Assembly (NCBI GenBank): GCA_031701365.1
Contig: GCA_031701365.1_4118.1
Origin: Escherichia coli
Lineage (GTDB): Bacteria; Pseudomonadota; Gammaproteobacteria; Enterobacterales; Enterobacteriaceae
Strand: one strand, 5' to 3'
Length of the DNA: 64,000 bases
Shown here: one piece after another, positions 1-15,675 of the stretch
How the letters are laid out: each line of letters opens with the position of its first letter
How positions within the stretch are numbered: position 1 is the stretch's first letter
Translations under genes and position numbers: made by a program
Notes under the pieces: generated by a model
Database searches by the model: none
Told to the model about the DNA's origin: nothing
The model's input: only the letters and a program-made list of their open reading frames with translations

Positions 1-88
1 GTATTCCACGCAGTAAGTACGAAAAAAGTAGTTGCCATTGATAGTAAAGTACTGTAATATAGTTTCATTAACTCAAGGAGTCAATACA

Positions 89-673: not shown

Positions 674-687
674 AAAAGATTAAAAAA

Positions 688-716
688 GGGATTGACTCAG
701 GTCAGTCCCTTTGCTA
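688..716 (+). terminator. rho-independent terminator-like hairpin
   Basis: GGGATTGAC-tcag-GTCAGTCCC inverted repeat followed by T-rich tract. Confidence 0.5.
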
Positions 717-744
717 TTATATATTCATTGAGAGATAACTCACT

Positions 745-775
745 GACCCATAGGGTGCGGAAGTGTATCTATTAT
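745..775 (+). promoter_or_regulatory. conserved intergenic box, copy 1
   Basis: CCCATAGGGTGCGGAAGTGTATCT; near-identical copy at 2665-2690, each downstream of a hairpin and upstream of a promoter cassette. Confidence 0.4.
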
Positions 776-809
776 ATAAGTATTCAGTACTGAAAACTAT
801 TTTATAAAA

Positions 810-875
810 AGTACTTGCATTGTACTTAGAATCAAGTATAATGTTTTATATCGAGAGGGGGAAATGGTTCTCCCT
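810..875 (+). promoter_or_regulatory. PeSL-like cassette 1: early-type promoter plus 5-prime UTR stem-loop
   Basis: -35 TTGCAT 815-820, 16-bp spacer, -10 TATAAT 837-842; hairpin AGGGGGAA-atgg-TTCTCCCT 855-874 just upstream of RBS. Confidence 0.6.
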
Positions 876-896
876 GGTACATTAAGGAATAAAATC

Positions 897-1118
897 ATGA
901 CTACGATGACTTGCGTTCACGCTTCAAATCTTCTGAATGATGCAGCATTTAAAGCAGGTGAAGAATATCAATGCTATCGGGATGAAAATAAAAAAGTTTT
1001 CGTCGTTGATGCTAACGGTTTCCATATTGAATTACAATCCGGCTTCACTGGTGTTGATGGTAAATCAGTATGGGGCGTACAGGACGATAACGGTACATAT
1101 CATTTTAAACGTAATTAA
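897..1118 (+). CDS. hypothetical small early protein
   Basis: ORF 864-1118, start moved to ATG 897 after AAGGA RBS downstream of cassette 1. Confidence 0.6.
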   Translation: MTTMTCVHASNLLNDAAFKAGEEYQCYRDENKKVFVVDANGFHIELQSGFTGVDGKSVWGVQDDNGTYHFKRN

Positions 1119-1121
1119 GTA

Positions 1122-1180
1122 TTGACAAAGTATATCAGTACTGTATAATAGTTTACATCAAGGGGAGAATAGTTCTCCCC
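1122..1180 (+). promoter_or_regulatory. PeSL-like cassette 2
   Basis: -35 TTGACA 1122-1127, TG-extended -10 TATAAT 1144-1149; hairpin GGGGAGA-atagt-TCTCCCC 1162-1180. Confidence 0.6.
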
Positions 1181-1202
1181 ACCAATAAAAGGAAACAAAA
1201 TT

Positions 1203-1475
1203 ATGTCCAGCTACTCCGCTACTATGATTATTAAAGATATGAACGGTAATCCTACTTCTGCTGGTGGATCATTTGGTAACATTAACTTAGATGGTCGGTT
1301 ATCAATTGAATCAGCCATCAATGCCGCGAAAGAAGTTTTTAAGAATGAATGTACTGTAAGCAAGCTGGATTATATGGGCTTCGCTATCGAGAAAACTAAT
1401 CGTTTTGTGGACTACAAAAAACCACTGATGATCGATACTAACCTGAAAGCTAACGAAGTGGAATACTTATTATGA
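1203..1475 (+). CDS. hypothetical small early protein
   Basis: ORF with AAAGGA RBS; downstream of cassette 2. Confidence 0.65.
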   Translation: MSSYSATMIIKDMNGNPTSAGGSFGNINLDGRLSIESAINAAKEVFKNECTVSKLDYMGFAIEKTNRFVDYKKPLMIDTNLKANEVEYLL

Positions 1476-1663
1476 CAGTAGAAGAAGTTAAAAAAGTACT
1501 GGCAGTACTACGCTATCATAATCATTGTAAGGTGAAGAATGATCCTGATTATCTTGATTCATCGCTGGAAGAGGATACACTACAAGCAATAAGCCATATG
1601 CAAAAAATGCTTAAGCGTATGACCGAAAAGAATAGGCCGGACTATATAGGAAATAAAATTTAA
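1472..1663 (+). CDS. hypothetical small protein
   Basis: ORF whose start overlaps upstream stop (ATGA), translationally coupled. Confidence 0.55.
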   Translation: MTVEEVKKVLAVLRYHNHCKVKNDPDYLDSSLEEDTLQAISHMQKMLKRMTEKNRPDYIGNKI

Positions 1664-1670
1664 AAAGTAC

Positions 1671-1727
1671 TTGCATTGTAAGTAAAACAAAGTATAATGT
1701 TTTGCATAGGGGGAGATATCCTCCCCC
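1671..1727 (+). promoter_or_regulatory. PeSL-like cassette 3
   Basis: -35 TTGCAT 1671-1676, -10 TATAAT 1693-1698; hairpin GGGGGAG-atatc-CTCCCCC 1709-1727. Confidence 0.6.
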
Positions 1728-1746
1728 ACTAATAAGGAGTACTAAA

Positions 1747-1971
1747 ATGGCTAACTTTGATGAACTGATGCGGGAAGTAGCTACCCTGGCAGAAGAGAAG
1801 AAATCATTTGATTCTATCTATAACACCGCTTACAGTGATTCAGTACTGGCATGTACTCAGGATCAAAAAGATGAACTGATCGCCACCTATCATGAAGCAT
1901 GGAAGTATTACCGCCAATGGGAGAAAGAAGAAAGCGAGTCTACCATCAACGGCCTCAATAATCTAATCTAA
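1747..1971 (+). CDS. hypothetical small early protein
   Basis: ORF 1702-1971, start moved to ATG 1747 after AAGGAG RBS. Confidence 0.65.
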   Translation: MANFDELMREVATLAEEKKSFDSIYNTAYSDSVLACTQDQKDELIATYHEAWKYYRQWEKEESESTINGLNNLI

Positions 1972-2046
1972 AGTTTTATTTCAGTACTATTATCATAGCG
2001 TGATAGTACTGTTGTGATAACTTTACTAACTACAAGGGGAAACATA

Positions 2047-2304
2047 ATGGAACAGTTTAAAACGTATCGGGTAAATCCAATCGCCACAGCCTACGTAGAA
2101 GACCATAAAACATTACCAGTACAGACACCAATCAAAGGCCGTATCTATCGTGCTATGCAGTGGAATAACGCCTATAATGGCTATAAAGCGGTATCCGCTG
2201 CAATGTACTTAGGGGATGGCGAATGGTTTGATCCAAATAATCCTGGTGCACTCGATAGTACTGAAAAAATGAAATGGGCCGACTATATCGAAGATATCTC
2301 ATAA
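2047..2304 (+). CDS. hypothetical small protein (MYLGDGE motif)
   Basis: ORF 2014-2304, start at ATG 2047; shares MYLGDGE motif with ORF 21801-22109. Confidence 0.6.
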   Translation: MEQFKTYRVNPIATAYVEDHKTLPVQTPIKGRIYRAMQWNNAYNGYKAVSAAMYLGDGEWFDPNNPGALDSTEKMKWADYIEDIS

Positions 2305-2311
2305 AAACTAT

Positions 2312-2373
2312 TTGACAGTACTACAAGATAATGTATAATGTTTTACATAGAGCGGGGGAATAGTTCTCCCGCA
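2312..2373 (+). promoter_or_regulatory. PeSL-like cassette 4
   Basis: -35 TTGACA 2312-2317, TG-extended -10 TATAAT 2334-2339; imperfect hairpin GCGGGGGA..TCTCCCGC 2352-2373. Confidence 0.6.
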
Positions 2374-2392
2374 CCTTTAGGAGTAAAACATT

Positions 2393-2593
2393 ATGTCAAT
2401 CGCTAACGAATTGGTTGCAGTACTGAATGAAGCAAAAGCCAACTGCATCGATGTACAGATCAAAGAGCTTGGCAATGGCTTGATCGGCTGTACATGTTCA
2501 GTTCAAACGGCTACCGATTATCGGGAAGTGGAATCACTCGAATCACTGGTACGGTATATTAAAATCCTGGTAGAAGATTGGAGAATCATCTAA
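2393..2593 (+). CDS. hypothetical small early protein
   Basis: ORF with TAGGAG RBS downstream of cassette 4. Confidence 0.65.
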   Translation: MSIANELVAVLNEAKANCIDVQIKELGNGLIGCTCSVQTATDYREVESLESLVRYIKILVEDWRII

Positions 2594-2611
2594 CAAAAAA
2601 GAATAAAAAAA

Positions 2612-2640
2612 GGAGTTGACTTCGGTCCGCTCCTTTAGTA
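2612..2640 (+). terminator. terminator-like hairpin
   Basis: GGAGTTGAC-ttcg-GTCCGCTCC followed by TTT. Confidence 0.45.
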
Positions 2641-2664
2641 CTATATACGCATAGACAAAAACTA

Positions 2665-2690
2665 GCCCACAGGGTGCAGAGAAGTATCTG
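2665..2690 (+). promoter_or_regulatory. conserved intergenic box, copy 2
   Basis: CCCACAGGGTGCAGAGAAGTATCT, homologous to 745-775. Confidence 0.4.
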
Positions 2691-2766
2691 TAAGATAGTT
2701 AATAACGGTGAGTAACTATCTGCTGGTGGATGTAATTCCAGTACTCAAAACTATTTCAAAAAAGTA

Positions 2767-2830
2767 TTGACAAAGTATAGCAGTACTGCAATAATGTATC
2801 TCGTAGGGCGGCAATGGTGCGACGGCCCAC
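2767..2830 (+). promoter_or_regulatory. PeSL-like cassette 5
   Basis: -35 TTGACA 2767-2772, -10 AATAAT about 2790-2795; GC-rich imperfect hairpin GGGCGGC..GGCCC 2806-2828. Confidence 0.5.
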
Positions 2831-2848
2831 AAAGTTAGGAGCTTCATC

Positions 2849-3175
2849 ATGAGTACTTCAATCGCTATCGTTAAAGCTTTCATCCGTACCAATTTCGACC
2901 GCATTACTGTTGATGGTAATGATCGGGAAGTAGAATACTCTTTCATTGTTGCACAAACCGCAAACGGTGCACGCTATATCTTAAACGATAGTGAAGCTAA
3001 CCACTACTTCTATAATAAAGGATTACACTACATCCCTAGCGAAGTAGTCTACACTAAGATGAATAAGCTGGTAGACAAGATTAACGCTAAAGGTACTATC
3101 GATTTACAGTACTGGACCGAAACAGATCCAGAATACGGATCACATCGTTACCTGAATCCAGGTATTAAAATGTAA
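2849..3175 (+). CDS. hypothetical small early protein
   Basis: ORF with AGGAG RBS. Confidence 0.65.
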   Translation: MSTSIAIVKAFIRTNFDRITVDGNDREVEYSFIVAQTANGARYILNDSEANHYFYNKGLHYIPSEVVYTKMNKLVDKINAKGTIDLQYWTETDPEYGSHRYLNPGIKM

Positions 3176-3182
3176 AAAGTAC

Positions 3183-3245
3183 TTGCATAGTACTTAGAAT
3201 CAAGTATAATGTTTTACATAGAGAGGGGGAAATGGTTCTCCCTCC
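3183..3245 (+). promoter_or_regulatory. PeSL-like cassette 6, near-identical to cassette 1
   Basis: -35 TTGCAT 3183-3188, -10 TATAAT 3205-3210; hairpin AGGGGGAAATGGTTCTCCCT 3223-3242; about 70 bp nearly identical to 808-875. Confidence 0.6.
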
Positions 3246-3264
3246 TAAATTAAGGAGTTTTATC

Positions 3265-3666
3265 ATGACCTTCTCAATCACTTCCTTCGCTGACGTTTTA
3301 GTACTGGCTCGGACTTTTGGTAAAGATGCACTGGAGTACGCTGTAAGTAATGGCACTCTCCAACCGGAACAATGCCGCATCATTGGAAACTGTAAACGTT
3401 GGGCGGTATCCAATACTATTGCACTAGAAAACTTCAACGATGGTAACAATGAGTATTCAGTTGATGCAGTATTCGAAGCCGTTGATCTTGGCGGTATCTA
3501 TAACACTAACCTAAATGATGTGCGTATCGTTCGCACGGGGTTCGGTGCTTATGATGTATCTATCCGTGAAGCTATGAACACCGGATACATTAGTAAGGAC
3601 TTACTTGCTCACATCATGCAGCTATGGACGGAACGTAACGAAGCACGCACTATCTTAGGACTATAA
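3265..3666 (+). CDS. hypothetical protein
   Basis: ORF 3232-3666, start moved to ATG 3265 after AAGGAG RBS. Confidence 0.65.
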   Translation: MTFSITSFADVLVLARTFGKDALEYAVSNGTLQPEQCRIIGNCKRWAVSNTIALENFNDGNNEYSVDAVFEAVDLGGIYNTNLNDVRIVRTGFGAYDVSIREAMNTGYISKDLLAHIMQLWTERNEARTILGL

Positions 3667-3690
3667 GCATTACACATCACCAAACATCAT

Positions 3691-3710
3691 AGGCCGCTCT
3701 CTAGCGGCCT
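3691..3710 (+). terminator. palindromic hairpin, weak terminator candidate
   Basis: AGGCCGCT-ctct-AGCGGCCT; no clear U-tract. Confidence 0.35.
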
Positions 3711-3734
3711 TAACTATATCAGGAGGGCATACAT

Positions 3735-3944
3735 ATGTTCTATACAGTATACAGCGTTCTAGGTACGATTGCTGGCGTACATGATAACGTCGATGATGCT
3801 ATGCGTACAGTACTAACACAAGTCCCCCTCAAGCCTAAGACTGTTAAGCAGATGACAGCACGACTAACCAGGGCGGGCGATGGCGTGGAAGTATGGCAGG
3901 ACTACGGGGATACACAGATAATCGTTAGCGTAACGAAGGATTAA
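3735..3944 (+). CDS. hypothetical small protein
   Basis: ORF with AGGAGG RBS. Confidence 0.55.
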   Translation: MFYTVYSVLGTIAGVHDNVDDAMRTVLTQVPLKPKTVKQMTARLTRAGDGVEVWQDYGDTQIIVSVTKD

Positions 3945-4135
3945 TGCGTAAAGGGATCTAGTACTGATTCAGAAAAAAGTCAAGGCGTTTTTAAAATTAT
4001 GCGTTAAAAAAATGCATAGGTAATCCCTTGACTTTTTTGAAATAAAAGGGATTGGACTATGGCAAAATGCGTAGGGGGCTAAAGGGCGGGTAACCTTAGC
4101 GACTTCGATAAAGGGGTATTACGAATAAAATGTTA

Positions 4136-4163
4136 TTGACTTTTTATACAATTCATATATTAT
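4136..4163 (+). promoter_or_regulatory. sigma70-like promoter upstream of family A array
   Basis: -35 TTGACT 4136-4141, 16-bp spacer, -10 TATTAT 4158-4163. Confidence 0.45.
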
Positions 4164-4193
4164 ATGATTGATATTATTTTCAAGGGAGTCCCT

Positions 4194-4391
4194 ATGCGTA
4201 TTTTAACTCAAGCAGAACACCACGAAAGACTTATCAATAACATGGCTATGATAATGTATAAGTCACATGAACGTGGTATTGCCTATAAGCGTGAATTAAT
4301 TATGGCACTATTCATTGGAACTAACTTTCAGGAAAGGTATGTCAAGGATTGGATTTGGTATTTAATTGAAGATGTAACGAGTAAACTATGA
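4194..4391 (+). CDS. family A small protein 1
   Basis: C-terminal FIGTNFQERYV..IEDVTSKL; start moved to ATG 4194. Confidence 0.65.
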   Translation: MRILTQAEHHERLINNMAMIMYKSHERGIAYKRELIMALFIGTNFQERYVKDWIWYLIEDVTSKL

Positions 4392-4588
4392 AAATGCGTA
4401 AATTAACCGAAAAAGAATATCAATCACTGTTACGTAAAAACTACGTAAAGATTTACAATACAGACACACACGTAGAACGAATGGAGTTATACCTTTTGAT
4501 TACATTGGGAACTAACTATCAGGATGCATGGGTGATTCAATATATGGATGCATTGAAAAATGAAATATTGTCCACGAGGAAACAATGA
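4388..4588 (+). CDS. family A small protein 2
   Basis: LGTNYQDAWV motif; ATGA overlap with upstream stop. Confidence 0.65.
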   Translation: MKMRKLTEKEYQSLLRKNYVKIYNTDTHVERMELYLLITLGTNYQDAWVIQYMDALKNEILSTRKQ

Positions 4589-4794
4589 AAACTATAACAC
4601 GAACCCAATCATTCGGACTTATCTTGAAATACATGGACTTAATGGTGGATATCAGCAAAGACCTGCCTAAAACTGCAATTGAAGTTGCAAGAGCAGAGAT
4701 CCGCATGTTGGCTGTACTGAACACAAACCATCAGGAAGAGTATGTTGACGATTGGATTCGATTTTTAATAGAAGATATTAAGAGTAAACTATGA
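4585..4794 (+). CDS. family A small protein 3
   Basis: LNTNHQEEYV..IEDIKSKL. Confidence 0.65.
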   Translation: MKTITRTQSFGLILKYMDLMVDISKDLPKTAIEVARAEIRMLAVLNTNHQEEYVDDWIRFLIEDIKSKL

Positions 4795-5003
4795 TTATAT
4801 TAACACCTGAAGAATATAAGAAACGTTTTAAATCTGTCCAGGCTGAAATATTACTTATATACCTTTCAAATGCAGATCTTAACTTATCAAGGGTAATGGA
4901 GAAGGATTTACTTATGGGTGCATTTTTGGATACAGACTTTCAGGAGTATTATGTAGGAGAATACTTTATTGCACTTCAGAACCACATTAAGAGTAAACTA
5001 TGA
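4791..5003 (+). CDS. family A small protein 4
   Basis: LDTDFQEYYV..IKSKL. Confidence 0.65.
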   Translation: MIILTPEEYKKRFKSVQAEILLIYLSNADLNLSRVMEKDLLMGAFLDTDFQEYYVGEYFIALQNHIKSKL

Positions 5004-5215
5004 TTATTCTAGAAAAATCATATCAATATACTGAACGCATCGCTGCCAGACAACTTGAAATCCTCATAATATACGAAGAGACTTCTGATTTAAACTTAGC
5101 CGAGGTATTGGAAAATGAAATACTTTTGGGTGCATTCTTGGGAACAGACTATCAGGAGTATTATGAGGAAAAGTATTTGTCATCTCTTGAGAAATACGTC
5201 AGGAGCAAACTATGA
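5000..5215 (+). CDS. family A small protein 5
   Basis: LGTDYQEYYE..VRSKL. Confidence 0.65.
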   Translation: MIILEKSYQYTERIAARQLEILIIYEETSDLNLAEVLENEILLGAFLGTDYQEYYEEKYLSSLEKYVRSKL

Positions 5216-5439
5216 AACATTTAAGTAATATAGAGAAGAATAAAATTATCATTGCTGTAATAAACAAATATTTTACACTTCCACAAAAAGAATGTTTATC
5301 TATAAGGGAACACAGGATAAACACCACCGAGATTCGCATGTTGGCTGTACTGGGGACTAACTTCCAAGAAGGCTATGTTCATGAGCACATCGTTGCACTC
5401 ACTAATTACATAATGGACAAATGTAATGAACATCATTAA
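5212..5439 (+). CDS. family A small protein 6
   Basis: LGTNFQEGYV. Confidence 0.65.
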   Translation: MKHLSNIEKNKIIIAVINKYFTLPQKECLSIREHRINTTEIRMLAVLGTNFQEGYVHEHIVALTNYIMDKCNEHH

Positions 5440-5650
5440 TAACTTTGAATACGAGGCCCGTGCTAAGAGTGCCAGAAAAAAAGAGAACACCATTTACTTC
5501 ACTATGATGTACTTACAATGGACTGAGATTGAAGAAAAGGTTGCTGAAGTATGGATGTTGGAATTCATGGGGACGCAGTATCAGAATAGGTTTGCGGGTG
5601 AGTATATCAATGTTCTTATGAAACAAATAGAAAGAAAGGAAAAGAACTAA
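5426..5650 (+). CDS. family A small protein 7
   Basis: MGTQYQNRFA. Confidence 0.6.
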   Translation: MNIINNFEYEARAKSARKKENTIYFTMMYLQWTEIEEKVAEVWMLEFMGTQYQNRFAGEYINVLMKQIERKEKN

Positions 5651-5808
5651 TGGTTTTCATTAACATATCTGACCAACTCGATACTAAACTAAAAGTCGAG
5701 AAGAGTGAGGGATGGATGCTGTACTTTCTTGGAACTTCTCATCAGAATTTTTATATCCATGAACACATAGTTGCACTCACAAATCTAATAAGGGATAAAT
5801 GCAAATGA
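5650..5808 (+). CDS. family A small protein 8 (52 aa, not in ORF track)
   Basis: Hand-translated MVFINISDQLDTKLKVEKSEGWMLYFLGTSHQNFYIHEHIVALTNLIRDKCK; below track length cutoff. Confidence 0.55.
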   Translation: MVFINISDQLDTKLKVEKSEGWMLYFLGTSHQNFYIHEHIVALTNLIRDKCK

Positions 5809-6062
5809 AACACTTAACACAAGATGAATATTCACTTAGAATTCGAAAGCTCACCCCAGAAGCAAGAGTAATCTACGATGACGATGCACTTTCATGGAAC
5901 GAGATGAAAGTTAAAGTTCATGAGCTATGGTTGCTGTACTTTGTGGGAACCCAATATCAAGAGAAATATTGTACCGATTATCTTGAACAACTAATGGATC
6001 TTATACAGATAAAACTAAATGAACGAATTGTGGAAAAATATGAAAACTTTATCAAGCACTGA
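5799..6062 (+). CDS. family A small protein 9
   Basis: VGTQYQEKYC; C-terminal extension past usual IK.KL end. Confidence 0.6.
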   Translation: MQMKHLTQDEYSLRIRKLTPEARVIYDDDALSWNEMKVKVHELWLLYFVGTQYQEKYCTDYLEQLMDLIQIKLNERIVEKYENFIKH

Positions 6063-6291
6063 GTATCAAACTGCCCTCTTCTCCCTTCTAAACACTCTCC
6101 GCACGAACAATAAACTTTATAATTCCCGTGAAGCTGATATTGTCAACGGTGAACTTTATCTTATGAAATTCATTGGAACAAACTATCAAGATCTGTTCAT
6201 TCAACGATACCTGGCAGCATTGAGAAACGAAATATCAGATAAAACCCGCCAAGCCAGAAGAGAATGGAAGAAACAATGCGACAAAGACTAA
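6019..6291 (+). CDS. family A small protein 10
   Basis: IGTNYQDLFI; start uncertain (6019 or 6040). Confidence 0.55.
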   Translation: MNELWKNMKTLSSTEYQTALFSLLNTLRTNNKLYNSREADIVNGELYLMKFIGTNYQDLFIQRYLAALRNEISDKTRQARREWKKQCDKD

Positions 6292-6527
6292 ATCACAAAA
6301 TGTATTGTAAACTATTACAGAATCTGGGACAAAAACACTATGATACAGTATCTGAAATATTACCCTATGATATCATGCGTTTAATTCATAGTGAGGCAGA
6401 GATGCTTGTACTGATGACAGGCACTGATAAAACAGCAATTACCAAATCTATAGATATGTTCATCGATGCACACTGCCAACACATTAGAACCGAGATATGG
6501 AGACGTGAGAATGAAAATCCTGACTGA
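6264..6527 (+). CDS. family A-like small protein 11 (divergent)
   Basis: MTGTDKTAI in place of LGTNYQ; start uncertain. Confidence 0.45.
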   Translation: MEETMRQRLNHKMYCKLLQNLGQKHYDTVSEILPYDIMRLIHSEAEMLVLMTGTDKTAITKSIDMFIDAHCQHIRTEIWRRENENPD

Positions 6528-6726
6528 GCATGAGTATTACAATAGGTTAAGAACGATACAAGGAAAAGTCTCGTGGACTTTTTTAGATAATTCTATTGCA
6601 GAAGCGGACCGATGTGTTATAATAGCTGAAATGAAGCTATTACTCTTCATTGGGACAAACTATCAAAGTATCTACATAGACGCATGGTTAAGCAGCTTAC
6701 GTCTGAAGTCGGTGAGTTTAAAATGA
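6511..6726 (+). CDS. family A small protein 12
   Basis: IGTNYQSIYI; start ATG 6511 (MKILTEHEY). Confidence 0.6.
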   Translation: MKILTEHEYYNRLRTIQGKVSWTFLDNSIAEADRCVIIAEMKLLLFIGTNYQSIYIDAWLSSLRLKSVSLK

Positions 6727-6941
6727 GAAAATTAATAGGTTTCGAATATGTTAAGCTTCTACAAACCTGTGGAATCAGAAGGAGAATGATTCAAAAGGAT
6801 AAAAGAATTGCCGAAGAACGAAAGTATATAATGATAACTGAACTTTATGTCTTAACACTCTTAGGCACAAACTATCAACACACTTATGTAGACCTATGGA
6901 TCGATGCACTACAGAAAGAGGTTAAAAGTAAATGCAAATGA
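6723..6941 (+). CDS. family A small protein 13
   Basis: LGTNYQHTYV; ATGA overlap start 6723. Confidence 0.6.
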   Translation: MRKLIGFEYVKLLQTCGIRRRMIQKDKRIAEERKYIMITELYVLTLLGTNYQHTYVDLWIDALQKEVKSKCK

Positions 6942-7150
6942 TTAATTTAAGTAAAGACGAATTTTATGTTATACTGGCGAAAACTTATCCAGCACGTAAG
7001 GCCGTTTATGATAGTCACATTATTGAACCCTCAAAGAAGTTGATTTTAGTAAATGAGATAAAGATGCTTTCAGTCTTAGGAACAAACTATCAAGAGAATG
7101 CGGTACTGATGTTAATTGATGCCCTCCAGCGAGAGGTTAAACGTAAATGA
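6932..7150 (+). CDS. family A small protein 14
   Basis: LGTNYQENAV; N-terminus MQMINLSKDEF. Confidence 0.65.
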   Translation: MQMINLSKDEFYVILAKTYPARKAVYDSHIIEPSKKLILVNEIKMLSVLGTNYQENAVLMLIDALQREVKRK

Positions 7151-7392
7151 AAATGATTAATTTAACTTACCATGAATATCAAAAACGTTTAAATGCATCC
7201 AGAGATATAAGGATTCAAATATTCAATAACAAAAGATTGAAGCCTGATATCAGGAAAATCAAAATCATAGAAGCCGTGTTGTGCAACTTCCTAGGGACTA
7301 ACTATCAGGAAGGTAAGGTAGAAAACTATCTTATAGAACTCATGAATAGTATTGAAAATAAATGCGAGGATAATGATCATGAAAATGATTAA
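7147..7392 (+). CDS. family A small protein 15
   Basis: LGTNYQEGKV; N-terminus MKMINLTYHEY. Confidence 0.65.
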   Translation: MKMINLTYHEYQKRLNASRDIRIQIFNNKRLKPDIRKIKIIEAVLCNFLGTNYQEGKVENYLIELMNSIENKCEDNDHEND

Positions 7393-7642
7393 TTTAAGTA
7401 AAGATGAATATACCGAGCGTATGACAAAAAATACTCTTAAACGTAATACAATCTATCACAACCCAGAAATTCAACACAGTAAGAAAATGATTATGATACG
7501 TGAGTTAAAGATGGGTGTATTCTTAGGAACAAACTATCAAGAGATGGAAGTAAATCGCTTAATCGCGGAGTTACTAATGGAAATCAAAGGTAAGCTGTAC
7601 TTTTATCAAATGACCCGTCCACTAAGGTGTACTGATCGATGA
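7379..7642 (+). CDS. family A small protein 16
   Basis: LGTNYQEMEV; start 7379 (MKMINLSKDEY) by analogy with the junction at 7147. Confidence 0.6.
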   Translation: MKMINLSKDEYTERMTKNTLKRNTIYHNPEIQHSKKMIMIRELKMGVFLGTNYQEMEVNRLIAELLMEIKGKLYFYQMTRPLRCTDR

Positions 7643-7881
7643 ATATTGTGAATAACATCAGATTAGCAGAAAGATTTGATAGAATTGGGGAAGCACTGAG
7701 AAGATACGATAAAGAATATGGTCATTTGAGCTTTTCTATAGAAAAGAGATATGAACTTGAAGCAGAGTTTAAAATGCAGAGTCTCTTAGGCACACAGTAT
7801 CAAAACCAATATATTCAAACTTGGATTGATTGTTTAATCCAGACAATTTACGTAAGGAACATTAAATGCAAAATGAAATGA
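7639..7881 (+). CDS. family A small protein 17
   Basis: LGTQYQNQYI. Confidence 0.6.
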   Translation: MNIVNNIRLAERFDRIGEALRRYDKEYGHLSFSIEKRYELEAEFKMQSLLGTQYQNQYIQTWIDCLIQTIYVRNIKCKMK

Positions 7882-8111
7882 TATACTTAACATATAATGA
7901 ATACGTCGAGAGATTAGTTAGTGCCAAGAGATATACAAATCAACTTCCTCACAACCCAAACCAAACCCCAGAGGAAAAGAATGCGGAAGCTCTATTCCAA
8001 GCACTACCATACCTTCTTGGAACTGATAGGCAGGAGTATCACGTTGAACGTATAATTAAATCTCTTAAAATCACTATTAAGGAAAAGATACATGAAGCAC
8101 TTGACAGATGA
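7866..8111 (+). CDS. family A small protein 18
   Basis: LGTDRQEYHV. Confidence 0.6.
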   Translation: MQNEMIYLTYNEYVERLVSAKRYTNQLPHNPNQTPEEKNAEALFQALPYLLGTDRQEYHVERIIKSLKITIKEKIHEALDR

Positions 8112-8322
8112 TGAACATGGGCTTATAGTAATGGATGTAATCAACATCGAATACAAAAAGTTGATACGCTACCGTTGTTATGAAGATAAGCAACTAGTTC
8201 TAGCAGAACAGAAGTTGTTTCGACTCTTAAACACAAACTACCAAGCACAATACGAAGAATCGTATATGTACCTTTTGGCGAGGAAAGCAAAAAGAGATTA
8301 TGAAAATTTTAAGCAAAGGTGA
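8092..8322 (+). CDS. family A small protein 19
   Basis: LNTNYQAQYE. Confidence 0.6.
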   Translation: MKHLTDDEHGLIVMDVINIEYKKLIRYRCYEDKQLVLAEQKLFRLLNTNYQAQYEESYMYLLARKAKRDYENFKQR

Positions 8323-8521
8323 TTCAGTAATATTACTTATAGAGAGTTCAAGTAAATTCTTAAACATAACACTGTCTGATATAGATGAAGATGATAAAGA
8401 AGTACTGAGAGCAGATTTAAGAGTACTGTTGCATCTCGGAACAAACCTACAAGAAGAATATGTAGAGTACTACATTGATGAACTTAAAGAATCAGTACTG
8501 AGAAGATGCAAATGCGAATGA
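8300..8521 (+). CDS. family A small protein 20
   Basis: LGTNLQEEYV. Confidence 0.6.
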   Translation: MKILSKGDSVILLIESSSKFLNITLSDIDEDDKEVLRADLRVLLHLGTNLQEEYVEYYIDELKESVLRRCKCE

Positions 8522-8733
8522 TTACCGACGAAGAATACCTAACAATTATAAATGGATTGTTTTTGAAGTTGTTTGTTATTAACACATCAGATATACCAGA
8601 TATGGATAAAATTATTAAGAGAAATGAAATCTATGTTCTAGCTACCCTGGGAACTAACTATCAAGAATACGATATTAATGATTATATTAATACACTTAAA
8701 CGAGCGATTGAACTAAAATGCCAAAACCACTAG
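8506..8733 (+). CDS. family A small protein 21
   Basis: LGTNYQEYDI. Confidence 0.6.
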   Translation: MQMRMITDEEYLTIINGLFLKLFVINTSDIPDMDKIIKRNEIYVLATLGTNYQEYDINDYINTLKRAIELKCQNH

Positions 8734-8933
8734 GAACAGCAGAATACATTGAACTCATGGGATTACACTTCTCATCCTTTCAGAAACTTATGCGAGAATC
8801 AAAGAATGATTTAGAATATACCATCAGAGGTTCAGATTTAAGAATGCTTCTCACCCTAGACACAGATTCCCAAGAGCGTTTTGTCAATGAGCACATTAGA
8901 GCACTTTTAATGGAAATTAAAAGTAAACTATGA
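8718..8933 (+). CDS. family A small protein 22
   Basis: LDTDSQERFV..IKSKL. Confidence 0.6.
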   Translation: MPKPLGTAEYIELMGLHFSSFQKLMRESKNDLEYTIRGSDLRMLLTLDTDSQERFVNEHIRALLMEIKSKL

Positions 8934-9145
8934 AGATAATATCAAATCAAGAGTACTTGGCACTATTCAGAAAGAATAATCACAAATTTATGGCACTTGA
9001 TTCAAGAACTGATATAAGTGAACTTGAAAAAAATCTTTTGCGTTCAGAGATGATAGTACTGACACTCTTAGGAACACAGCATCAAGAAAGAACTGTTAAT
9101 TCACACATAGAAATACTTAAGAAGCTTATACAGGAAAAGTTATGA
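8930..9145 (+). CDS. family A small protein 23
   Basis: LGTQHQERTV. Confidence 0.6.
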   Translation: MKIISNQEYLALFRKNNHKFMALDSRTDISELEKNLLRSEMIVLTLLGTQHQERTVNSHIEILKKLIQEKL

Positions 9146-9363
9146 GAATCATAACACAACAAGATATTCTTAAGTTCACAAGGGTTCATGCATCTGAATT
9201 TGATGCTATATTATCAAAAAGTTACAACAACCCTTATACAGAAGATGTACACTACAATGAATTATGGATGTATATACTTTTAGGTACAGATCATCAAGAG
9301 CAAGCCGTACAGAGGTATTTGAGTGCTTTAAGTACTGCTACTGCTAATGGAGTATGTGTTTAA
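9142..9363 (+). CDS. family A small protein 24
   Basis: LGTDHQEQAV. Confidence 0.6.
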   Translation: MRIITQQDILKFTRVHASEFDAILSKSYNNPYTEDVHYNELWMYILLGTDHQEQAVQRYLSALSTATANGVCV

Positions 9364-9364
9364 T

Positions 9365-9607
9365 ATGAAAGTACTGACAGAATTAGAAATGTATCATAGA
9401 TTTAATAAGTACTATCATTTACTTAAACCTATACAGAGGATTAAGTGTCCCTTTGTAGTGAAACAGGTATTAATTTATGAGCATAAGTTATTTGTATCAT
9501 TAGGTACGAATGAACAAGAGTATTATTTGAAGTTGTACTTGATTACATTAATAGATTTAATTCACTATAAAACCAAACAAGCTAATAAAGAGAAATATGA
9601 AAACTAA
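9365..9607 (+). CDS. family A small protein 25
   Basis: LGTNEQEYYL; start ATG 9365 (MKVLTEL). Confidence 0.55.
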   Translation: MKVLTELEMYHRFNKYYHLLKPIQRIKCPFVVKQVLIYEHKLFVSLGTNEQEYYLKLYLITLIDLIHYKTKQANKEKYEN

Positions 9608-9941
9608 TATACAACTCAAGGTATATAAATCATTTGAACATACATATATCAAAAGTAGTCTATGTAGAGATGTAATGGATTACAAGGGTAAGCCATTCAC
9701 AATTACCTATGATTCTTATGTTAGTGATTTATATATATCATTTGTTAATTACGAAAATAAAATATACAAGCACGTTGATATTAAAGATTTAAGTACTTTA
9801 TCACCAGAGGAATACTTTCAGGAATCATTAGTATGGGATTTAGAGTTCCCTATGCCATTAGTACATAAGATGATAGTACTAATGAAAGAATCTAAACAGG
9901 AGCCTAATAGTGGTTATGAAGAACACATTATTGAGTATTAA
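9597..9941 (+). CDS. family B protein 1
   Basis: C-terminal EEYFQESLVWD. Confidence 0.6.
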   Translation: MKTNIQLKVYKSFEHTYIKSSLCRDVMDYKGKPFTITYDSYVSDLYISFVNYENKIYKHVDIKDLSTLSPEEYFQESLVWDLEFPMPLVHKMIVLMKESKQEPNSGYEEHIIEY

Positions 9942-9973
9942 GAGTTCTGATAGTACTGAGAGTACAAATGTTC

Positions 9974-10002
9974 TTGACAGTACTTTTCATTACTGATATA
10001 GT
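9974..10002 (+). promoter_or_regulatory. sigma70-like promoter
   Basis: -35 TTGACA 9974-9979, 17-bp spacer, -10 TATAGT 9997-10002. Confidence 0.45.
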
Positions 10003-10031
10003 GCACCAACGTTAATCATAGGGTACAGATT

Positions 10032-10277
10032 ATGTTAAAATTTTTAAATTTCCTTATCGTCTTGTGTATTGTTCTTGGAATTGCACCGTTTGTATTAGCG
10101 TATCTGGATTCAGATGAAATGCAGAAGATGAATTGCACAAAGACAGGACAGAGTAGAGAAGAGACGGTTATGATGCCTGTAACGGTTATTGTGAATAACA
10201 TACCAATTACGAACATGATTCCTACCCTAACGACAACGTACCAGTACTCTTGTACAGATGGAGAGAGGTGGAGATGA
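10032..10277 (+). CDS. hypothetical small membrane protein
   Basis: Hydrophobic N-terminal segment FLNFLIVLCIVLGIAPFVLAYL; weak RBS. Confidence 0.4.
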   Translation: MLKFLNFLIVLCIVLGIAPFVLAYLDSDEMQKMNCTKTGQSREETVMMPVTVIVNNIPITNMIPTLTTTYQYSCTDGERWR

Positions 10278-10594
10278 AATTTAATATAGCAAAAACATCT
10301 AATATATGTATATTTGGTTATGCCGAAGAGTTGGGTGATATTGACATTCTTTTGTACAAAAAGGATGGTGTTATGCATTTCAAGTACCAGGATGAAGAGG
10401 CAGACAATTATCCTTTACCTAATTTAGTACAAATGCAGGAAGAGGAATTATTCCAGTACAGCTTAGTATATGACATTGATATTTGCACGATGCCAGTACT
10501 AATTAATATTCAAAAAGTGATGCTCGATGTGTTTGATAGGCTAATACAAGGCACACAAGGAAGAACCATATATGTCAATGTACAAGACAATTAA
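10274..10594 (+). CDS. family B protein 2
   Basis: EELFQYSLVYD; start probably ATG 10274 (MKFNIAK). Confidence 0.6.
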   Translation: MKFNIAKTSNICIFGYAEELGDIDILLYKKDGVMHFKYQDEEADNYPLPNLVQMQEEELFQYSLVYDIDICTMPVLINIQKVMLDVFDRLIQGTQGRTIYVNVQDN

Positions 10595-10787
10595 TCAAGA
10601 ATGGAAGACCCAAAAGTACAGGGAATTCAGTACTAGTTTAACAAAAGATGCATTGAATTTAAAAAGAACAGAGTTTGATATGTTTATTTTTCTTGGAACA
10701 CGTTCCCAGGAACAATACATTCATTATTATATAAGTTCATTGCGAACGGAGATCGTATGCAAAACACAGGGTATTATAAAAAAGTAA
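10572..10787 (+). CDS. family A small protein 26 (displaced copy)
   Basis: LGTRSQEQYI. Confidence 0.55.
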   Translation: MSMYKTINQEWKTQKYREFSTSLTKDALNLKRTEFDMFIFLGTRSQEQYIHYYISSLRTEIVCKTQGIIKK

Positions 10788-11023
10788 ACCAATATTTGTA
10801 CGCTACAAAGTACAGGGATTTTTGTTTAAAGGGTGGTGATGAAGATTTTTCTTTGCGATTATCAGAATTTAATCTGTTATTTTATCTTGGTACATCGGAA
10901 CAAGAAGAAATGGCACAGAAATTTATCAAGCACCTTGAACAAAAAATTCATATGCAAATTTTGATGCTTAAGGTACATAATGAGATAAACAAATATGAAC
11001 CCAACAATAGTACAGGATCTTAA
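10757..11023 (+). CDS. family A small protein 27 (displaced copy)
   Basis: LGTSEQEEMA. Confidence 0.5.
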   Translation: MQNTGYYKKVNQYLYATKYRDFCLKGGDEDFSLRLSEFNLLFYLGTSEQEEMAQKFIKHLEQKIHMQILMLKVHNEINKYEPNNSTGS

Positions 11024-11384
11024 ACAAGTAATATTCCTTTTGAATACAAGAAGTGAAATGTATACAGAGTTTAAAGAGATTAATGCATTTTATCAGAATT
11101 TTGTAATTCAAGAGTTCAGTGATTTAATTACAGATGCATTATTTGAATTATCGGAAAAATACAAAGGAACAGAGTTCAGTGTTAAGAATGTATTACGTTC
11201 TTTATCAAAGCGTATAATAAAATTAGATCATTTTACATTTGACAATAAAGATTTATTCAGTCACAATCCAAGTACAGCTTTATATTTTATTCCTGATTCA
11301 GACAAAAATCATCCTATTCATTACGGATGGATTTTGTCGTACATAGTACAAGGAAAGGAGTATCCTATTAAATGGAACGATTAG
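10995..11384 (+). CDS. family B-like protein 3 (divergent)
   Basis: AFYQNFVIQE variant motif; placement in family tentative. Confidence 0.45.
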   Translation: MNPTIVQDLKQVIFLLNTRSEMYTEFKEINAFYQNFVIQEFSDLITDALFELSEKYKGTEFSVKNVLRSLSKRIIKLDHFTFDNKDLFSHNPSTALYFIPDSDKNHPIHYGWILSYIVQGKEYPIKWND

Positions 11385-11741
11385 GGCGATTAGATTATTA
11401 CACAATTAATACAAATTATTTGTTGCGTAATATAAAATCCGATTACAAAATATGGATAAAGAACAGAGATAGTATGTGTTATGAATTTTATTTAGATTAT
11501 GCCATCAAACGCTTTTTAAGAGAAGAACATTAATGCACACACCGCACAAAGAGCACACAGAGCACAAAAATACAAAAACGATAAATGTTTTAAATGATTC
11601 TTTATTGGTGAGTATAAATTTATATTATAAAATTCATTTAAATGGTGGTATTGAAAATTTTAGTTATTATTTGAGTACAATATCGCAAGAGCATTTAATA
11701 TACCAAGATCATTTATTGCACCCGAATCCATAAGGCGAATT

Positions 11742-13939: not shown

Positions 13940-13964
13940 GATATGGGCTTTTTTCGTTTTGGTA

Positions 13965-13993
13965 TTGACAAAGAAGTGCAAAGCTGTTATCAT
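13965..13993 (+). promoter_or_regulatory. sigma70-like promoter
   Basis: -35 TTGACA 13965-13970, 17-bp spacer, -10 TATCAT. Confidence 0.4.
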
Positions 13994-15674: not shown

Positions 15675-15675
15675 T

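What the first reader, a model, noticed from the sequence alone, without database searches (positions are those of the whole stretch)
4164..8300. Core of the family A array is an AGTACT-free island
Despite the dense enrichment elsewhere, I found essentially no AGTACT between about 4.0 and 8.3 kb; sites reappear in the last family A genes from about 8.4 kb. The contrast suggests either recent horizontal acquisition of this block from a genome lacking the motif, or functional exclusion of the site from this operon.
Basis: seen in the sequence. Interest (0 to 1): 0.55.

Follow-up and report, generated by a model that had tools for sequence, protein, structure and literature searches.

The report
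Strand-specific motif-free zones beside terminal repeat
The AGTACT-free stretch is real, but it is one of two mirror-image zones just inside the terminal repeat of a jumbo coliphage in which one DNA strand has lost part of a motif that is about tenfold enriched elsewhere; in the second zone the triplet ACT is completely absent from one strand for 7.5 kb, a conserved feature that seems to be undescribed.

Summary
Observation confirmed. AGTACT occurs 200 times in the window (17 expected), in all reading frames, but never between 3966 and 8400.

The window is an Asteriusvirus (Rak2-like jumbo coliphage, closest to 121Q). These two gaps are the only long ones in a 352-kb relative and recur in 121Q, G17, ECO103, EJP2 and Klebsiella phage fENko-Kae01.

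Island A begins at the inner end of the 21-kb direct terminal repeat (window 4096). It lacks every AGTAC on the + strand but keeps TGTACT. Island B lacks the trinucleotide ACT on the + strand for 7,504 bp (about 139 expected), starting at a conserved promoter, and keeps AGTACA at full density.

The genes inside the zones differ between lineages. The zones are therefore tied to position, specific to one strand, and maintained by selection. Horizontal acquisition is not supported. "Functional exclusion" is supported, but as exclusion of half the motif from one strand.

Best mechanism (inferred, about 0.35): ACT is the start trinucleotide of the phage's T4-type primase, and AGTACT is its full hexamer footprint. 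The zones would then be stretches where one strand cannot be primed. The main rival is an RNase-resistant, ACU-free transcript.

I found no published description. Interest is high.

The parts
1..4096 (+). Last 4.1 kb of the ~21-kb direct terminal repeat (DTR). AGTACT is dense here (27 sites, 6-8/kb). Chi sites at 1260 and 2722 are both on the + strand.
   Evidence: The DTR is annotated 1-21525 in vB_Ec-M-J, and its end falls 152 bp after the homologue of gene 3735-3944. The physical end of the G17 record maps to window 4096. The fEgEco12 DTR of 20,993 bp was confirmed by PhageTerm and restriction digests (PMC13070987). Chi sites.
3988..4182 (+). Conserved DTR-end junction (...GGGCGGGTAACCT|TAGCGAC...) followed by a sigma-70-like promoter, TTGACT/16/TATTAT, at 4136-4163.
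   Evidence: This is the only DNA between the repeat end and the end of island B that is conserved among the window, EJP2 and fENko-Kae01 (blastn). Promoter scan. The same junction and promoter are seen in EJP2 and fENko.
3966..8400 (+). Island A, the reported finding. It has no AGTACT, no AGTAC and no GTACA on the + strand. Of its 11 GTAC, 8 are TGTACT (4713, 5346, 5508, 5720, 5935, 6407, 7596, 7628), which read AGTACA on the - strand. It encodes 13 'family A' paralogues.
   Evidence: PHROG 4148, unknown function.
8101..8129 (+). Near-consensus sigma-70-like promoter (TTGACA/17/TATAGT) at the right edge of island A.
8401..9992 (+). 'Centre' with normal palindromic sites: 13 AGTACT, including 4 within 94 bp at 8401-8494. 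It holds three more family A copies.
9974..10002 (+). Extended -10 sigma-70-like promoter, TTGACAGTACTTTTCATTACTGATATAGT. The last ACT before island B (9992) lies in its spacer.
   Evidence: The promoter is identical and identically placed in 121Q, G17 and ECO103.
9993..10632 (+). Promoter-proximal part of island B. It has only three ACT, all inside AGTACT (10243, 10495, 10629).
10633..18135 (+). Island B core. There is no ACT on the + strand for 7,504 bp (139 expected). TCT is at one third of expectation. AGT is normal. There are 42 AGTACA sites across 9990-18205, in all frames, and about 20 genes of unknown function.
   Evidence: frames.
18080..18522 (+). Right edge of island B. It has a promoter-like site (TAGAGA/17/TATAAT, 18080-18108), the first ACT at 18136, and then five AGTACT in 312 bp (18206-18517). 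It begins a gene family that is conserved in EJP2.

Best explanation
Shown:
- The window is the left end of a Rak2-like jumbo coliphage (Asteriusvirus).
- AGTACT, in its extended form CAGTACTG, is a DNA-level signal enriched about 8-10-fold on composition across the genome and across the clade.
- Right after the inner end of the 21-kb terminal repeat lie two zones of opposite polarity.
- In zone A (the finding) the + strand has no AGTAC, so the - strand has no GTACT.
- In zone B the + strand has no ACT at all, yet keeps AGTAC as AGTACA, so GTACT survives only on the - strand.
- The AGTACT-free island is therefore a by-product of removing one strand-specific half of the motif.
- The zones are tied to position, anchored on the repeat end. 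They hold different genes in different lineages and are maintained by selection.

Inferred:
- A reader that specifies three nucleotides on one strand works on single-stranded nucleic acid. The mirror relation (AGT depleted in A, ACT depleted in B, with both zones transcribed the same way) points to DNA rather than RNA.
- The most likely reader is the phage's T4-type primase. 5'-ACT-3' would be its start trinucleotide, with the 3' T cryptic, as in the GTT/GCT sites of T4 gp61.
- 5'-WGTACT-3' would then be the full six-base footprint of a pentamer primer, pppGUAC(U/A).
- Palindromic sites would give both strands a strong start site at once.
- The zones would be stretches where the strand displaced by synthesis moving away from the centre (8.1-10 kb) cannot be primed (B) or lacks strong start sites (A). 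That strand would stay single-stranded, for example for recombination-dependent replication or repeat processing.
- Why this would be useful is not established.
For: **Motif**
- The window has 200 AGTACT against 17 expected.
- Sites fall in all three frames and between genes.
- The flanks are symmetric, C at -1 and G at +6. CAGTACTG occurs 44 times against 0.6 expected.
- Genome-wide counts are 919 against 119 in ECO103 and 928 against 116 in a Rak2-like Klebsiella phage.
- AGTACT is also the top hexamer in a Yersinia Eneladusvirus.
- No one-mismatch neighbour of AGTACT is strongly depleted (lowest 0.49-0.55, AGTCCT and AGGACT), so a repair-driven origin is unlikely.

**Zones**
- These are the only two long gaps in 352 kb.
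- Pentamer counts: A has AGTAC 0 and TGTACT 8. B has GTACT 0 and AGTACA 39, or 5.15/kb, equal to AGTACT plus AGTACA elsewhere.
- ACT is absent from 10633-18135. No other trinucleotide behaves like this anywhere in the genome.
- The same gaps occur in 121Q, G17 and ECO103.
- Thr codons in B are ACT 1, ACA 84, ACC 17 and ACG 14, with Thr frequency unchanged.

**Mirror symmetry**
- In fENko, AGT is the most depleted of the 64 trinucleotides in the A-like zone and ACT in the B-like zone.
- In ECO103 the genome-wide minima of AGT and ACT per 4 kb fall in A and B.
- EJP2 has the same architecture.

**Position**
- Zone A starts at the repeat end.
- The genes inside the zones are not conserved between lineages. 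Only the junction and the flanking genes are.

**Primase**
- A zinc-finger plus TOPRIM primase is encoded in ECO103 (PHROG 47, E = 1e-31).
- Rak2-like phages have T4-type replication and recombination genes (PMC5259590).
- T4 gp61 reads a trinucleotide on ssDNA and makes pentamer primers (PMC10359460).
- ACT is exactly the 3' trinucleotide of the enriched hexamer. The chance of that by coincidence is about 2 in 64.
Against: - There is no biochemical evidence that this primase reads ACT.
- T4 primase uses only a minority of its sites, so the complete loss of about 139 ACT is more typical of resistance to a nuclease.
- Zone B starts within a few bases of a promoter's transcription start in four genomes and ends near the next promoter. 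That fits an RNA-level constraint at least as well.
- Both flanks (C and G) are kept in the asymmetric sites. This also fits a dimeric protein that binds double-stranded DNA.
- The Rak2-like Klebsiella phage has the motif enrichment but no zone, so the zones are not an obligatory consequence of the primase.
- No conserved origin-like element was found in the centre.
- Site spacing is close to Poisson, with variance/mean of 0.64-1.18.
- In the window's zone A the AGT deficit (0.57) is confounded by a general deficit of GT-containing words in the paralogue array.
Confidence: 0.35

Rival explanations
1. RNA-level constraint. Zone B would be one early transcription unit whose mRNA is kept free of ACU, and zone A one kept free of AGUAC. 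The transcripts would then survive a sequence-specific endoribonuclease, phage- or host-encoded, of the MazF/Kid/RegB kind. This is analogous to ACA-less mRNAs that resist MazF.
For: - The ACT-free zone begins at the transcription start of a conserved near-consensus promoter. The last ACT lies in its spacer in four genomes. The zone ends about 20 nt after the next promoter-like site.
- The + strand is the coding strand.
- Complete elimination in all frames and in the intergenic DNA is what nuclease resistance requires.
- Enterobacterial MazF enzymes that cut U^ACU exist (PMC10864209).
- AGTACT is densest in the earliest genes, as expected for sites that shorten the life of early mRNA.
Against: - Zones A and B are transcribed in the same direction, yet they lack reverse-complementary words (AGT/AGTAC against ACT). 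In fENko these are the single most depleted trinucleotides of each zone. An RNA reading therefore needs two RNases with complementary specificities.
- Zone A mRNA is rich in ACU.
- The fENko B-like zone does not start at a strong promoter.
- The retention of AGTACA at full density in all frames is left unexplained.
- I know of no ACU-specific RNase.
Confidence: 0.2
2. Avoidance of a harmful site on single-stranded DNA. The purged strands would be the ones that become single-stranded, through resection from the terminase cut, a D-loop or an R-loop. ACT, and more weakly TCT, would be the target of an ssDNA-specific nuclease or modifier, in the manner of T4 endonuclease IV (TCA) or DarT. The genome-wide AGTACT signal would be a separate matter.
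For: - The exclusion is strand-specific, at trinucleotide level, and mirrored.
- The loss is complete, as expected when a single hit is lethal.
- Specificity is graded: ACT 0, TCT about 0.3, CCT and GCT normal. The same profile appears in two genera.
- The zones are anchored on a known double-strand cut site.
- The one-orientation Chi cluster in the repeat shows that processing of DNA ends matters here.
Against: - The rest of the genome is full of ACT on both strands, and it must also pass through single-stranded states.
- That the avoided trinucleotide is the terminal triplet of the enriched hexamer would be a coincidence, at about 3%.
- No such enzyme is known for these phages or for E. coli (my own knowledge).
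Confidence: 0.15
3. AGTACT (CAGTACTG) would be the binding site of a dimeric protein that reads double-stranded DNA, such as a global regulator or a nucleoid-like protein. Two early operons would be kept free of full sites so as to escape it. AGTACA and TGTACT would be residual near-cognate sites.
For: - The motif is a perfect palindrome with symmetric flanks.
- Both flanks are retained in the 7-of-8 variants.
- Both zones lack the full site and roughly match the intervals between promoters.
Against: - A reader of double-stranded DNA cannot tell ACT from AGT, yet zone B has 0 ACT and 196 AGT.
- It does not explain the loss of non-palindromic AGTAC[C/G] in A or [C/G/T]GTACT in B.
- It does not explain the deficit of TCT.
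- The flanks do not match the one E. coli protein known to have an AGTACT core. That protein is SlmA, whose site is GTGAGTACTCAC. GAGTACTC occurs once against 44 CAGTACTG (PMC3020112).
Confidence: 0.1
4. Recent horizontal acquisition of the block from a genome without the motif.
For: - The genes inside the zones are lineage-specific. They have no homologues in EJP2 or fENko.
- The tetranucleotide signature of A and B differs from that of 18-64 kb.
Against: - The zones are conserved in place in all the relatives that have them, despite different gene content.
- Family A spans the island edge.
- The motif is present in one-base-variant form at full density in B.
- The motif-rich repeat and centre deviate in signature as much or more.
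- No donor would lack ACT on one strand only.
Confidence: 0.03

Closest known systems
Recognition sites of DnaG/T4 gp61/T7 gp4-type primases (T4: 5'-GTT/GCT-3', cryptic 3' base, pentamer primer)
   Same: - Both specify a trinucleotide on one strand of ssDNA.
- The footprint is six bases, matching a hexamer whose 3' triplet is the excluded word.
- ACT differs from the T4 site GCT by one base.
- A homologous primase is encoded in the relative ECO103.
   Different: - To my knowledge, no phage is known to enrich a full primer footprint tenfold.
- No phage is known to keep kilobase zones free of its primase site.
- The specificity of this primase has not been measured.
ACA-less mRNAs that resist the MazF endoribonuclease, and T4 RegB/GGAG control of early mRNAs
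   Same: - A three-base word is completely absent from the sense strand of a transcription unit.
- The zone starts at the transcription start.
   Different: - The neighbouring zone lacks the reverse-complementary word although it is transcribed the same way.
- No RNase that cuts at ACU in any context is known.
- The ACA-less system is engineered, or concerns single genes, not an 8-kb block of about 20 genes.
Polar chromosomal motifs (Chi, KOPS) and the one-orientation EcoP15I sites of T7
   Same: A short oligomer is confined to one strand, and the polarity flips at a defined point. Genuine Chi sites are also clustered in one orientation in the adjacent repeat.
   Different: - Elsewhere in the genome the motif is palindromic and so has no polarity.
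- The exclusion goes down to three bases.
- It covers only 4-8 kb next to the repeat.
Restriction-site-free first-step-transfer DNA of phage T5 (my own knowledge, not tested here)
   Same: Both are phages with a long terminal repeat in which a hexamer is missing from a defined stretch near the left end.
   Different: Here the repeat itself is the most site-rich DNA, the site is enriched rather than avoided genome-wide, and the loss is strand-specific.
Strand-displacement replication with restricted priming (mitochondrial OL, ColE1 primosome assembly site, single-strand origins of rolling-circle plasmids)
   Same: The concept is shared: a displaced strand that can be primed only at designated sites. 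Zone B keeps just 2-3 AGTACT, within about 500-650 nt of its promoter.
   Different: This is an analogy only. No origin has been mapped, and no conserved element was found in the centre.

Membership tests
Restriction-site avoidance (evasion of restriction-modification) | The palindromic site is under-represented genome-wide relative to expectation. | tested here: not met
   AGTACT is 8- to 12-fold over-represented (200 against 17; 919 against 119).
Restriction-site avoidance (evasion of restriction-modification) | Loss of the site is symmetric and arises from any mutation, mostly synonymous ones. | tested here: not met
   Only one base is changed: T6 to A in B (39 of 41) and A1 to T in A. The change occurs in all frames.
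Horizontally acquired island | Composition is atypical relative to the flanks, and the island is absent from relatives. | tested here: not met
   The island is present in 121Q, G17, ECO103, EJP2 and fENko. The flanking repeat and centre deviate as much in signature. Family A spans the edge.
T4 gp61-type primase start sites | A cognate primase with a zinc-binding domain and a TOPRIM domain is encoded. | tested here: met
   ECO103 ORF 90712-91767 has a CxxC...CxxC motif and EGxxD...DxD, and matches PHROG 47 'DNA primase' at E = 1e-31. Pfam and PDB sequence searches found nothing. The gene lies outside this window.
T4 gp61-type primase start sites | Trinucleotide specificity on one strand, located at the 3' end of a six-base primer footprint. 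| tested here: inconclusive
   The strand-specific exclusion of ACT and the enrichment of AGTACT fit this, but the evidence is statistical only.
T4 gp61-type primase start sites | Primers demonstrably start at the site. | not testable with these tools
   This needs primase assays or mapping of RNA-DNA junctions.
Toxin-RNase-resistant (ACA-less type) transcript | The cleavage word is absent from the sense strand from the transcription start to the end of the unit. | tested here: met
   Zone B runs from the last ACT at -16 of promoter 9974 to the first ACT at about +21 of promoter 18080.
Toxin-RNase-resistant (ACA-less type) transcript | A single RNA-level specificity explains every purged unit. 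| tested here: not met
   Zone A, transcribed in the same direction, is depleted in AGT/AGTAC and is rich in ACT.
Polar motifs of the Chi/KOPS type | The strand bias of the oligomer extends over whole replichores or the whole genome. | tested here: not met
   The ACT/AGT skew is about 0 everywhere except in the two zones. The motif is palindromic elsewhere.
SlmA-binding sites (GTGAGTACTCAC) | Flanks of GTG...CAC around the AGTACT core. | tested here: not met
   In the window only 1 of 200 sites has 2 or fewer mismatches in the six flanking positions. GAGTACTC occurs once against 44 CAGTACTG.
Sequence-specific DNA modification at the motif | Restriction enzymes whose sites contain the modified word are blocked. 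| tested here: inconclusive
   The literature reports that SpeI (ACTAGT) and nine other enzymes cut fEgEco12 DNA as predicted (PMC13070987). ScaI (AGTACT) was not tested, and I found no methylome data.

The most novel reading that the evidence does not exclude
The genomes of the Rak2-like jumbo phages would be formatted for their own primase. A full primer footprint (AGTACT) would be selected about tenfold on both strands throughout the genome. Next to the terminal repeat, two mirror-image zones would be blind to the primase, one of them with not a single ACT in 7.5 kb. These zones would programme long stretches of persistent single-stranded DNA that drive recombination-dependent replication or regeneration of the terminal repeat. 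That would be a new kind of cis-acting genome architecture, readable directly from sequence.
Probability: 0.3. Interest if true: 0.85.

Novelty: categorically new. Interest (0 to 1): 0.8.

Why it matters
**What is unusual**
- I know of no other phage or cell that keeps a trinucleotide completely off one strand for 7.5-8.2 kb.
- Here that happens across about 20 genes that differ between lineages.
- A mirror-image partner zone lies alongside, and both are anchored on the terminase cut site.
- Selection this strong and this exact points to an enzyme that reads three bases on a single strand, at a place where a single event matters.

**What it would reveal, whichever reader is responsible**
- It gives the specificity of an uncharacterised enzyme straight from sequence: ACT strongly, TCT weakly, CCT and GCT not at all.
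- It identifies a processing or replication intermediate at the terminal repeat of a group of jumbo phages now being developed for therapy.
- It gives a rationale for the clade-wide enrichment of AGTACT (roughly 6- to 12-fold, depending on genome and null model). I found no published mention of this enrichment.

**Practical consequence**
Engineering these phages in the zones would have to respect the constraint.

Tried and rejected
1. **Sequencing or base-calling artefact at a modified motif.** I suspected this when the variants turned out to be the same single-base change on opposite strands. I rejected it because three independently sequenced relatives show the same pattern.
2. **Dipeptide or codon effect.** Rejected. 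The sites fall in all three frames and between genes.
3. **Repair-driven (VSP-like) enrichment.** Rejected. No one-mismatch neighbour of AGTACT is strongly depleted (lowest 0.49-0.55).
4. **SlmA or another host protein with an AGTACT core.** The flanks do not match.
5. **A matching island at the outer boundary of the repeat.** None exists there, only a mild excess of ACT over AGT.
6. **A conserved origin-like element in the centre.** None was found by blastn or tblastn across three lineages.
7. **Regular spacing of sites.** The dispersion is near Poisson.
8. **Function of the island proteins.** PHROG families of unknown function only, and no Pfam match.
9. **RNA families and tRNAs in the window.** None.
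10. **Zones in the Rak2-like Klebsiella phage.** Absent, although the motif is enriched there.
11. **Literature.** Searches for AGTACT or CAGTACTG in phages, and reading of the Asteriusvirus papers, found no description of the motif or the zones.
UACG is not depleted in zone B.

Full report
**1. What the window is**

Megablast places the window in the Asteriusvirus group of Rak2-like jumbo coliphages. The closest record is 121Q, at 96% identity over 3-12 kb and 99% over 30-50 kb. A crude ORF call gives 149 genes, 147 of them on the + strand. The window holds no tRNA gene and no Rfam family.

**2. The observation**

AGTACT occurs 200 times, against 17.2 +/- 4.2 in dinucleotide-preserving shuffles. 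No site lies between 3960 and 8401, exactly as reported.

At the density seen outside the gaps, that gap has P = 4e-8. At the shuffle background it has P = 0.30. So for the hexamer alone, the island has lost an enrichment. It does not show avoidance.

The next longest gap in the window is 1,117 bp.

**3. The motif is a DNA-level signal**

- Sites fall in all three frames (74/37/62 in frames 0/1/2) and between genes (26).
- In the relative ECO103 the frame counts are 376/135/232.
- The flanks are symmetric: C at -1 in 90 of 200 sites and G at +6 in 90 of 200.
- CAGTACTG occurs 44 times against 0.6 expected.
- No one-mismatch neighbour of AGTACT is strongly depleted (lowest 0.49-0.55). This argues against a repair-driven origin of the VSP type.

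The enrichment extends across genomes and across the clade.

| Phage | AGTACT observed | Expected |
|---|---|---|
| ECO103 4-12-1 (352 kb) | 919 | 119 |
| fENko-Kae01, Klebsiella (30 kb) | 94 | 10 |
| Rak2-like Klebsiella phage (342.5 kb) | 928 | 116 |
| fHe-Yen9-04, Yersinia Eneladusvirus (25 kb) | 51 | 8.4 |

Literature searches and the Asteriusvirus and CBB genome papers do not mention the motif.

**4. The islands are strand-specific**

| Word on the + strand | Island A (3966-8400) | Island B (10635-18205) | Rest of window |
|---|---|---|---|
| AGTAC | 0 | 5.4/kb | 5.7/kb |
| GTACT | 9 | 0 | 5.1/kb |
| TGTACT | 8 | 0 | 0.56/kb |
| AGTACA | 0 | 39 (5.15/kb) | 1.27/kb |

The AGTACA density in B equals AGTACT plus AGTACA elsewhere.

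The variants keep the 8-mer context. They read CTGTACTG in A and CAGTACAG in B, and these are reverse complements of each other. The B sites fall in all frames (17/10/9, plus 3 between genes).

I first suspected a base-calling artefact at a modified motif. The same pattern is present in 121Q and G17, which were sequenced independently. In ECO103 these are the only two long gaps in 352 kb: 8,286 and 4,999 bp, with the next at 2,103 bp.

**5. Island B lacks a trinucleotide**

An unbiased k-mer comparison showed that ACT itself is missing from the + strand.
- There is no ACT from 10633 to 18135, a run of 7,504 bp in which about 139 are expected.
- Between 9993 and 10632 there are only three ACT, all inside AGTACT (10243, 10495, 10629).
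- AGT on the same strand is normal: 196 observed against 163 expected.
- No other trinucleotide has a comparable gap anywhere in the window or in the 352-kb relative. The normalised gap size is 129-159 for ACT (seen as AGT in the inverted ECO103 record), against at most 25 for any other.
- The run is 7,511 bp in 121Q, 7,649 bp in G17 and 8,213 bp in ECO103.
- TCT is at one third of expectation, while CCT and GCT are normal. The same profile appears in ECO103 and in fENko.
- Thr codons in B are ACT 1, ACA 84, ACC 17 and ACG 14. Elsewhere ACT accounts for 327 of 784 Thr codons. Thr frequency is unchanged.

The constraint therefore acts on nucleotides, against normal codon usage.

**6. Anchoring on the terminal repeat**

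- In vB_Ec-M-J the direct terminal repeat is annotated 1-21525. It ends 152 bp after the homologue of window gene 3735-3944.
- The physical end of the G17 record maps to the same point, window 4096.
- A repeat of about 21 kb was confirmed experimentally for fEgEco12 (PMC13070987).

Island A therefore starts at the inner end of the left repeat. A sigma-70-like promoter follows at 4136-4163. The layout is:

1. Repeat (AGTACT at 6-8/kb), ending at 4096.
2. Zone A, 4097 to about 8135.
3. Promoter at 8101.
4. Centre with palindromic sites.
5. Promoter at 9974.
6. Zone B, 9993-18135.
7. Promoter-like site at 18080.
8. A cluster of five AGTACT at 18206-18517.

The last ACT before zone B lies in the spacer of the 9974 promoter. 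That promoter and this arrangement are identical in four genomes, and so is the right edge.

**7. The zones follow position, not genes**

fENko-Kae01 belongs to another genus, and its repeat end is known. It has the same order of zones on a smaller scale.
- AGTAC is absent, and AGT strongly depleted, from 0 to 2.2 kb after the repeat end.
- Only 2 ACT remain between 3.9 and 6.3 kb after the repeat end.

EJP2 has the same architecture.

The genes inside A, the centre and B have no homologues among the three lineages. Only the last repeat genes, the junction with its promoter (window 3988-4182), and the gene family that starts where ACT returns are conserved.

Family A has 13 copies inside island A and 3 in the motif-rich centre.

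I compared tetranucleotide signatures after removing words that contain the motif. Zones A and B differ from the 18-64 kb region. The motif-rich repeat and centre differ as much or more.

Horizontal acquisition therefore does not explain the island.

**8. DNA or RNA?**

Both zones are transcribed rightward, yet they lack reverse-complementary words.
- In fENko, AGT is the single most depleted trinucleotide of the A-like zone (15 against 45 expected).
- In fENko, ACT is the single most depleted trinucleotide of the B-like zone (2 against 51 expected).
- In ECO103 the genome-wide minimum of AGT per 4 kb falls in zone A, and the minimum of ACT falls in zone B.

This mirror relation favours a single reader acting on opposite DNA strands over two RNases with complementary specificities.

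Two caveats apply. In the window's own zone A, the AGT deficit (0.57) is confounded by a general deficit of GT-containing words in the paralogue array. And the tight match between zone B and a transcription unit keeps the RNA reading alive.

**9. Most likely reader (inference)**

Enzymes known to specify three bases on a single strand include primases, MazF-type RNases, a few ssDNA nucleases and DarT. This list rests on my own knowledge.

Rak2-like phages have T4-type replication and recombination genes (PMC5259590). ECO103 encodes a primase with a zinc finger and a TOPRIM domain (PHROG 47, E = 1e-31).

T4 gp61 reads 5'-GTT or 5'-GCT on ssDNA and makes pentamer primers (PMC10359460). That the 3' base of the site is not copied can be read from the template and primer in that paper's assay. 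Its footprint is therefore six bases.

Read the same way, 5'-AGTACT-3' is a cryptic T plus the template for pppGUACU, and ACT is its 3' trinucleotide. This is exactly the excluded word, and it differs from GCT by one base.

On this reading:
- Palindromic sites supply both strands with a strong start site at once.
- Zone B has strong sites only on the - strand and none of any kind on the + strand.
- Zone A lacks strong sites on the - strand.
- Synthesis moving away from the centre would leave the displaced strand unprimed.

I cannot say what that achieves. Candidates are:
- a persistent 3' tail for recombination-dependent synthesis from the end left by the terminase cut;
- initiation from an R-loop at the 9974 promoter, with retrograde priming limited to the 2-3 AGTACT sites retained near it.

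The same-orientation Chi cluster in the repeat shows that end processing matters here. It is seen in the window at 1260 and 2722, at nine sites in ECO103, five in fENko and three in EJP2.

**10. Weaknesses**

- There is no biochemistry.
- Complete elimination looks more like resistance to a nuclease.
- The Rak2-like Klebsiella phage has the motif but no zone.
- The centre has no conserved element.
- Site spacing is near Poisson.
- Both flanks of the 8-mer are retained in the asymmetric sites, which also fits a dimeric protein reading double-stranded DNA.
- Modification of ACT is unlikely, because SpeI (ACTAGT) cuts fEgEco12 DNA as predicted.

**11. Verdict**

The horizontal-transfer reading is not supported. 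The exclusion reading is right in spirit, but the real feature is larger and stranger than reported: two strand-specific, mirror-image, position-bound zones next to the terminal repeat.

I put the statement that the feature is strand-specific, tied to position and maintained by selection at about 0.85. I put the primase mechanism at about 0.35.

Noticed in passing
window 1260 and 2722; ECO103 repeat (9 sites); L014 835-4355 (5 sites); L022 1295-3554 (3 sites): E. coli Chi sites (GCTGGTGG) are clustered in the terminal repeat, nearly all in the same orientation. That orientation is the one recognised by RecBCD entering from the inner end of the repeat, which is the right end of the virion DNA. 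Chi is rare elsewhere in these genomes.
   Followed up: partly
window 3988-4182: The repeat-end junction (…AAAGGGCGGGTAACCT|TAGCGACTTCG…) and the promoter after it are the only DNA in this region conserved across three lineages. It is probably the terminase recognition and cut site.
   Followed up: partly
window 1122-1149 and 2312-2339: Two perfect 12-of-12 sigma-70 consensus promoters (TTGACA/16/TATAAT) lie inside the repeat. Several 11-of-12 matches occur at 2767, 8101, 9974, 12470 and 13965.
   Followed up: no
window 14317-14331, also 13007 and 17139: Head-to-tail runs of the pentamer, (AGTAC)2-3, occur inside island B.
   Followed up: no
window 1-4096 compared with the rest: GATC is about three times denser in the repeat part (5.1/kb) than elsewhere (0.45-1.6/kb). 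The phage encodes a Dam-like methyltransferase, annotated in relatives within the 30-50 kb stretch.
   Followed up: no
window 10633-18135; ECO103 and fENko B-like zones: Besides ACT, TCT is reduced to about one third, while CCT and GCT are normal. This gives a graded specificity profile for the unknown reader.
   Followed up: yes
ECO103 (re-oriented), the 5 kb before the outer repeat boundary: ACT exceeds AGT on the + strand (30-38 against 11-20 per kb). AGTACT is as dense here as in the repeat. There is no motif-free island.
   Followed up: partly
window 8401-8494 and 18206-18517: Tight clusters of AGTACT (4 in 94 bp, 5 in 312 bp) sit at or just beyond the right edge of each island.
   Followed up: no
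ECO103 genome-wide: AGGACT and its complement AGTCCT occur at about half the expected frequency. They are the only clearly depleted one-mismatch neighbours of AGTACT.
   Followed up: no
L015 (OU509535 55000-100000), the first 45-kb stretch fetched of the Rak2-like Klebsiella phage: On the + strand the asymmetric CAGTACAG is as frequent as the palindrome CAGTACTG (19 each). Genome-wide the counts are 45 against 244. This phage has no trinucleotide-free zone.
   Followed up: partly
fEgEco12 (literature, PMC13070987): The phage carries two tRNA-Ser and two tRNA-Thr genes. AGT (Ser) followed by ACT (Thr) is the commonest reading frame of the motif.
   Followed up: no
window 11.7-35 kb: There are long tandem arrays of paralogous genes of 120-215 aa with unknown function. 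The arrays continue across the right edge of island B.
   Followed up: no
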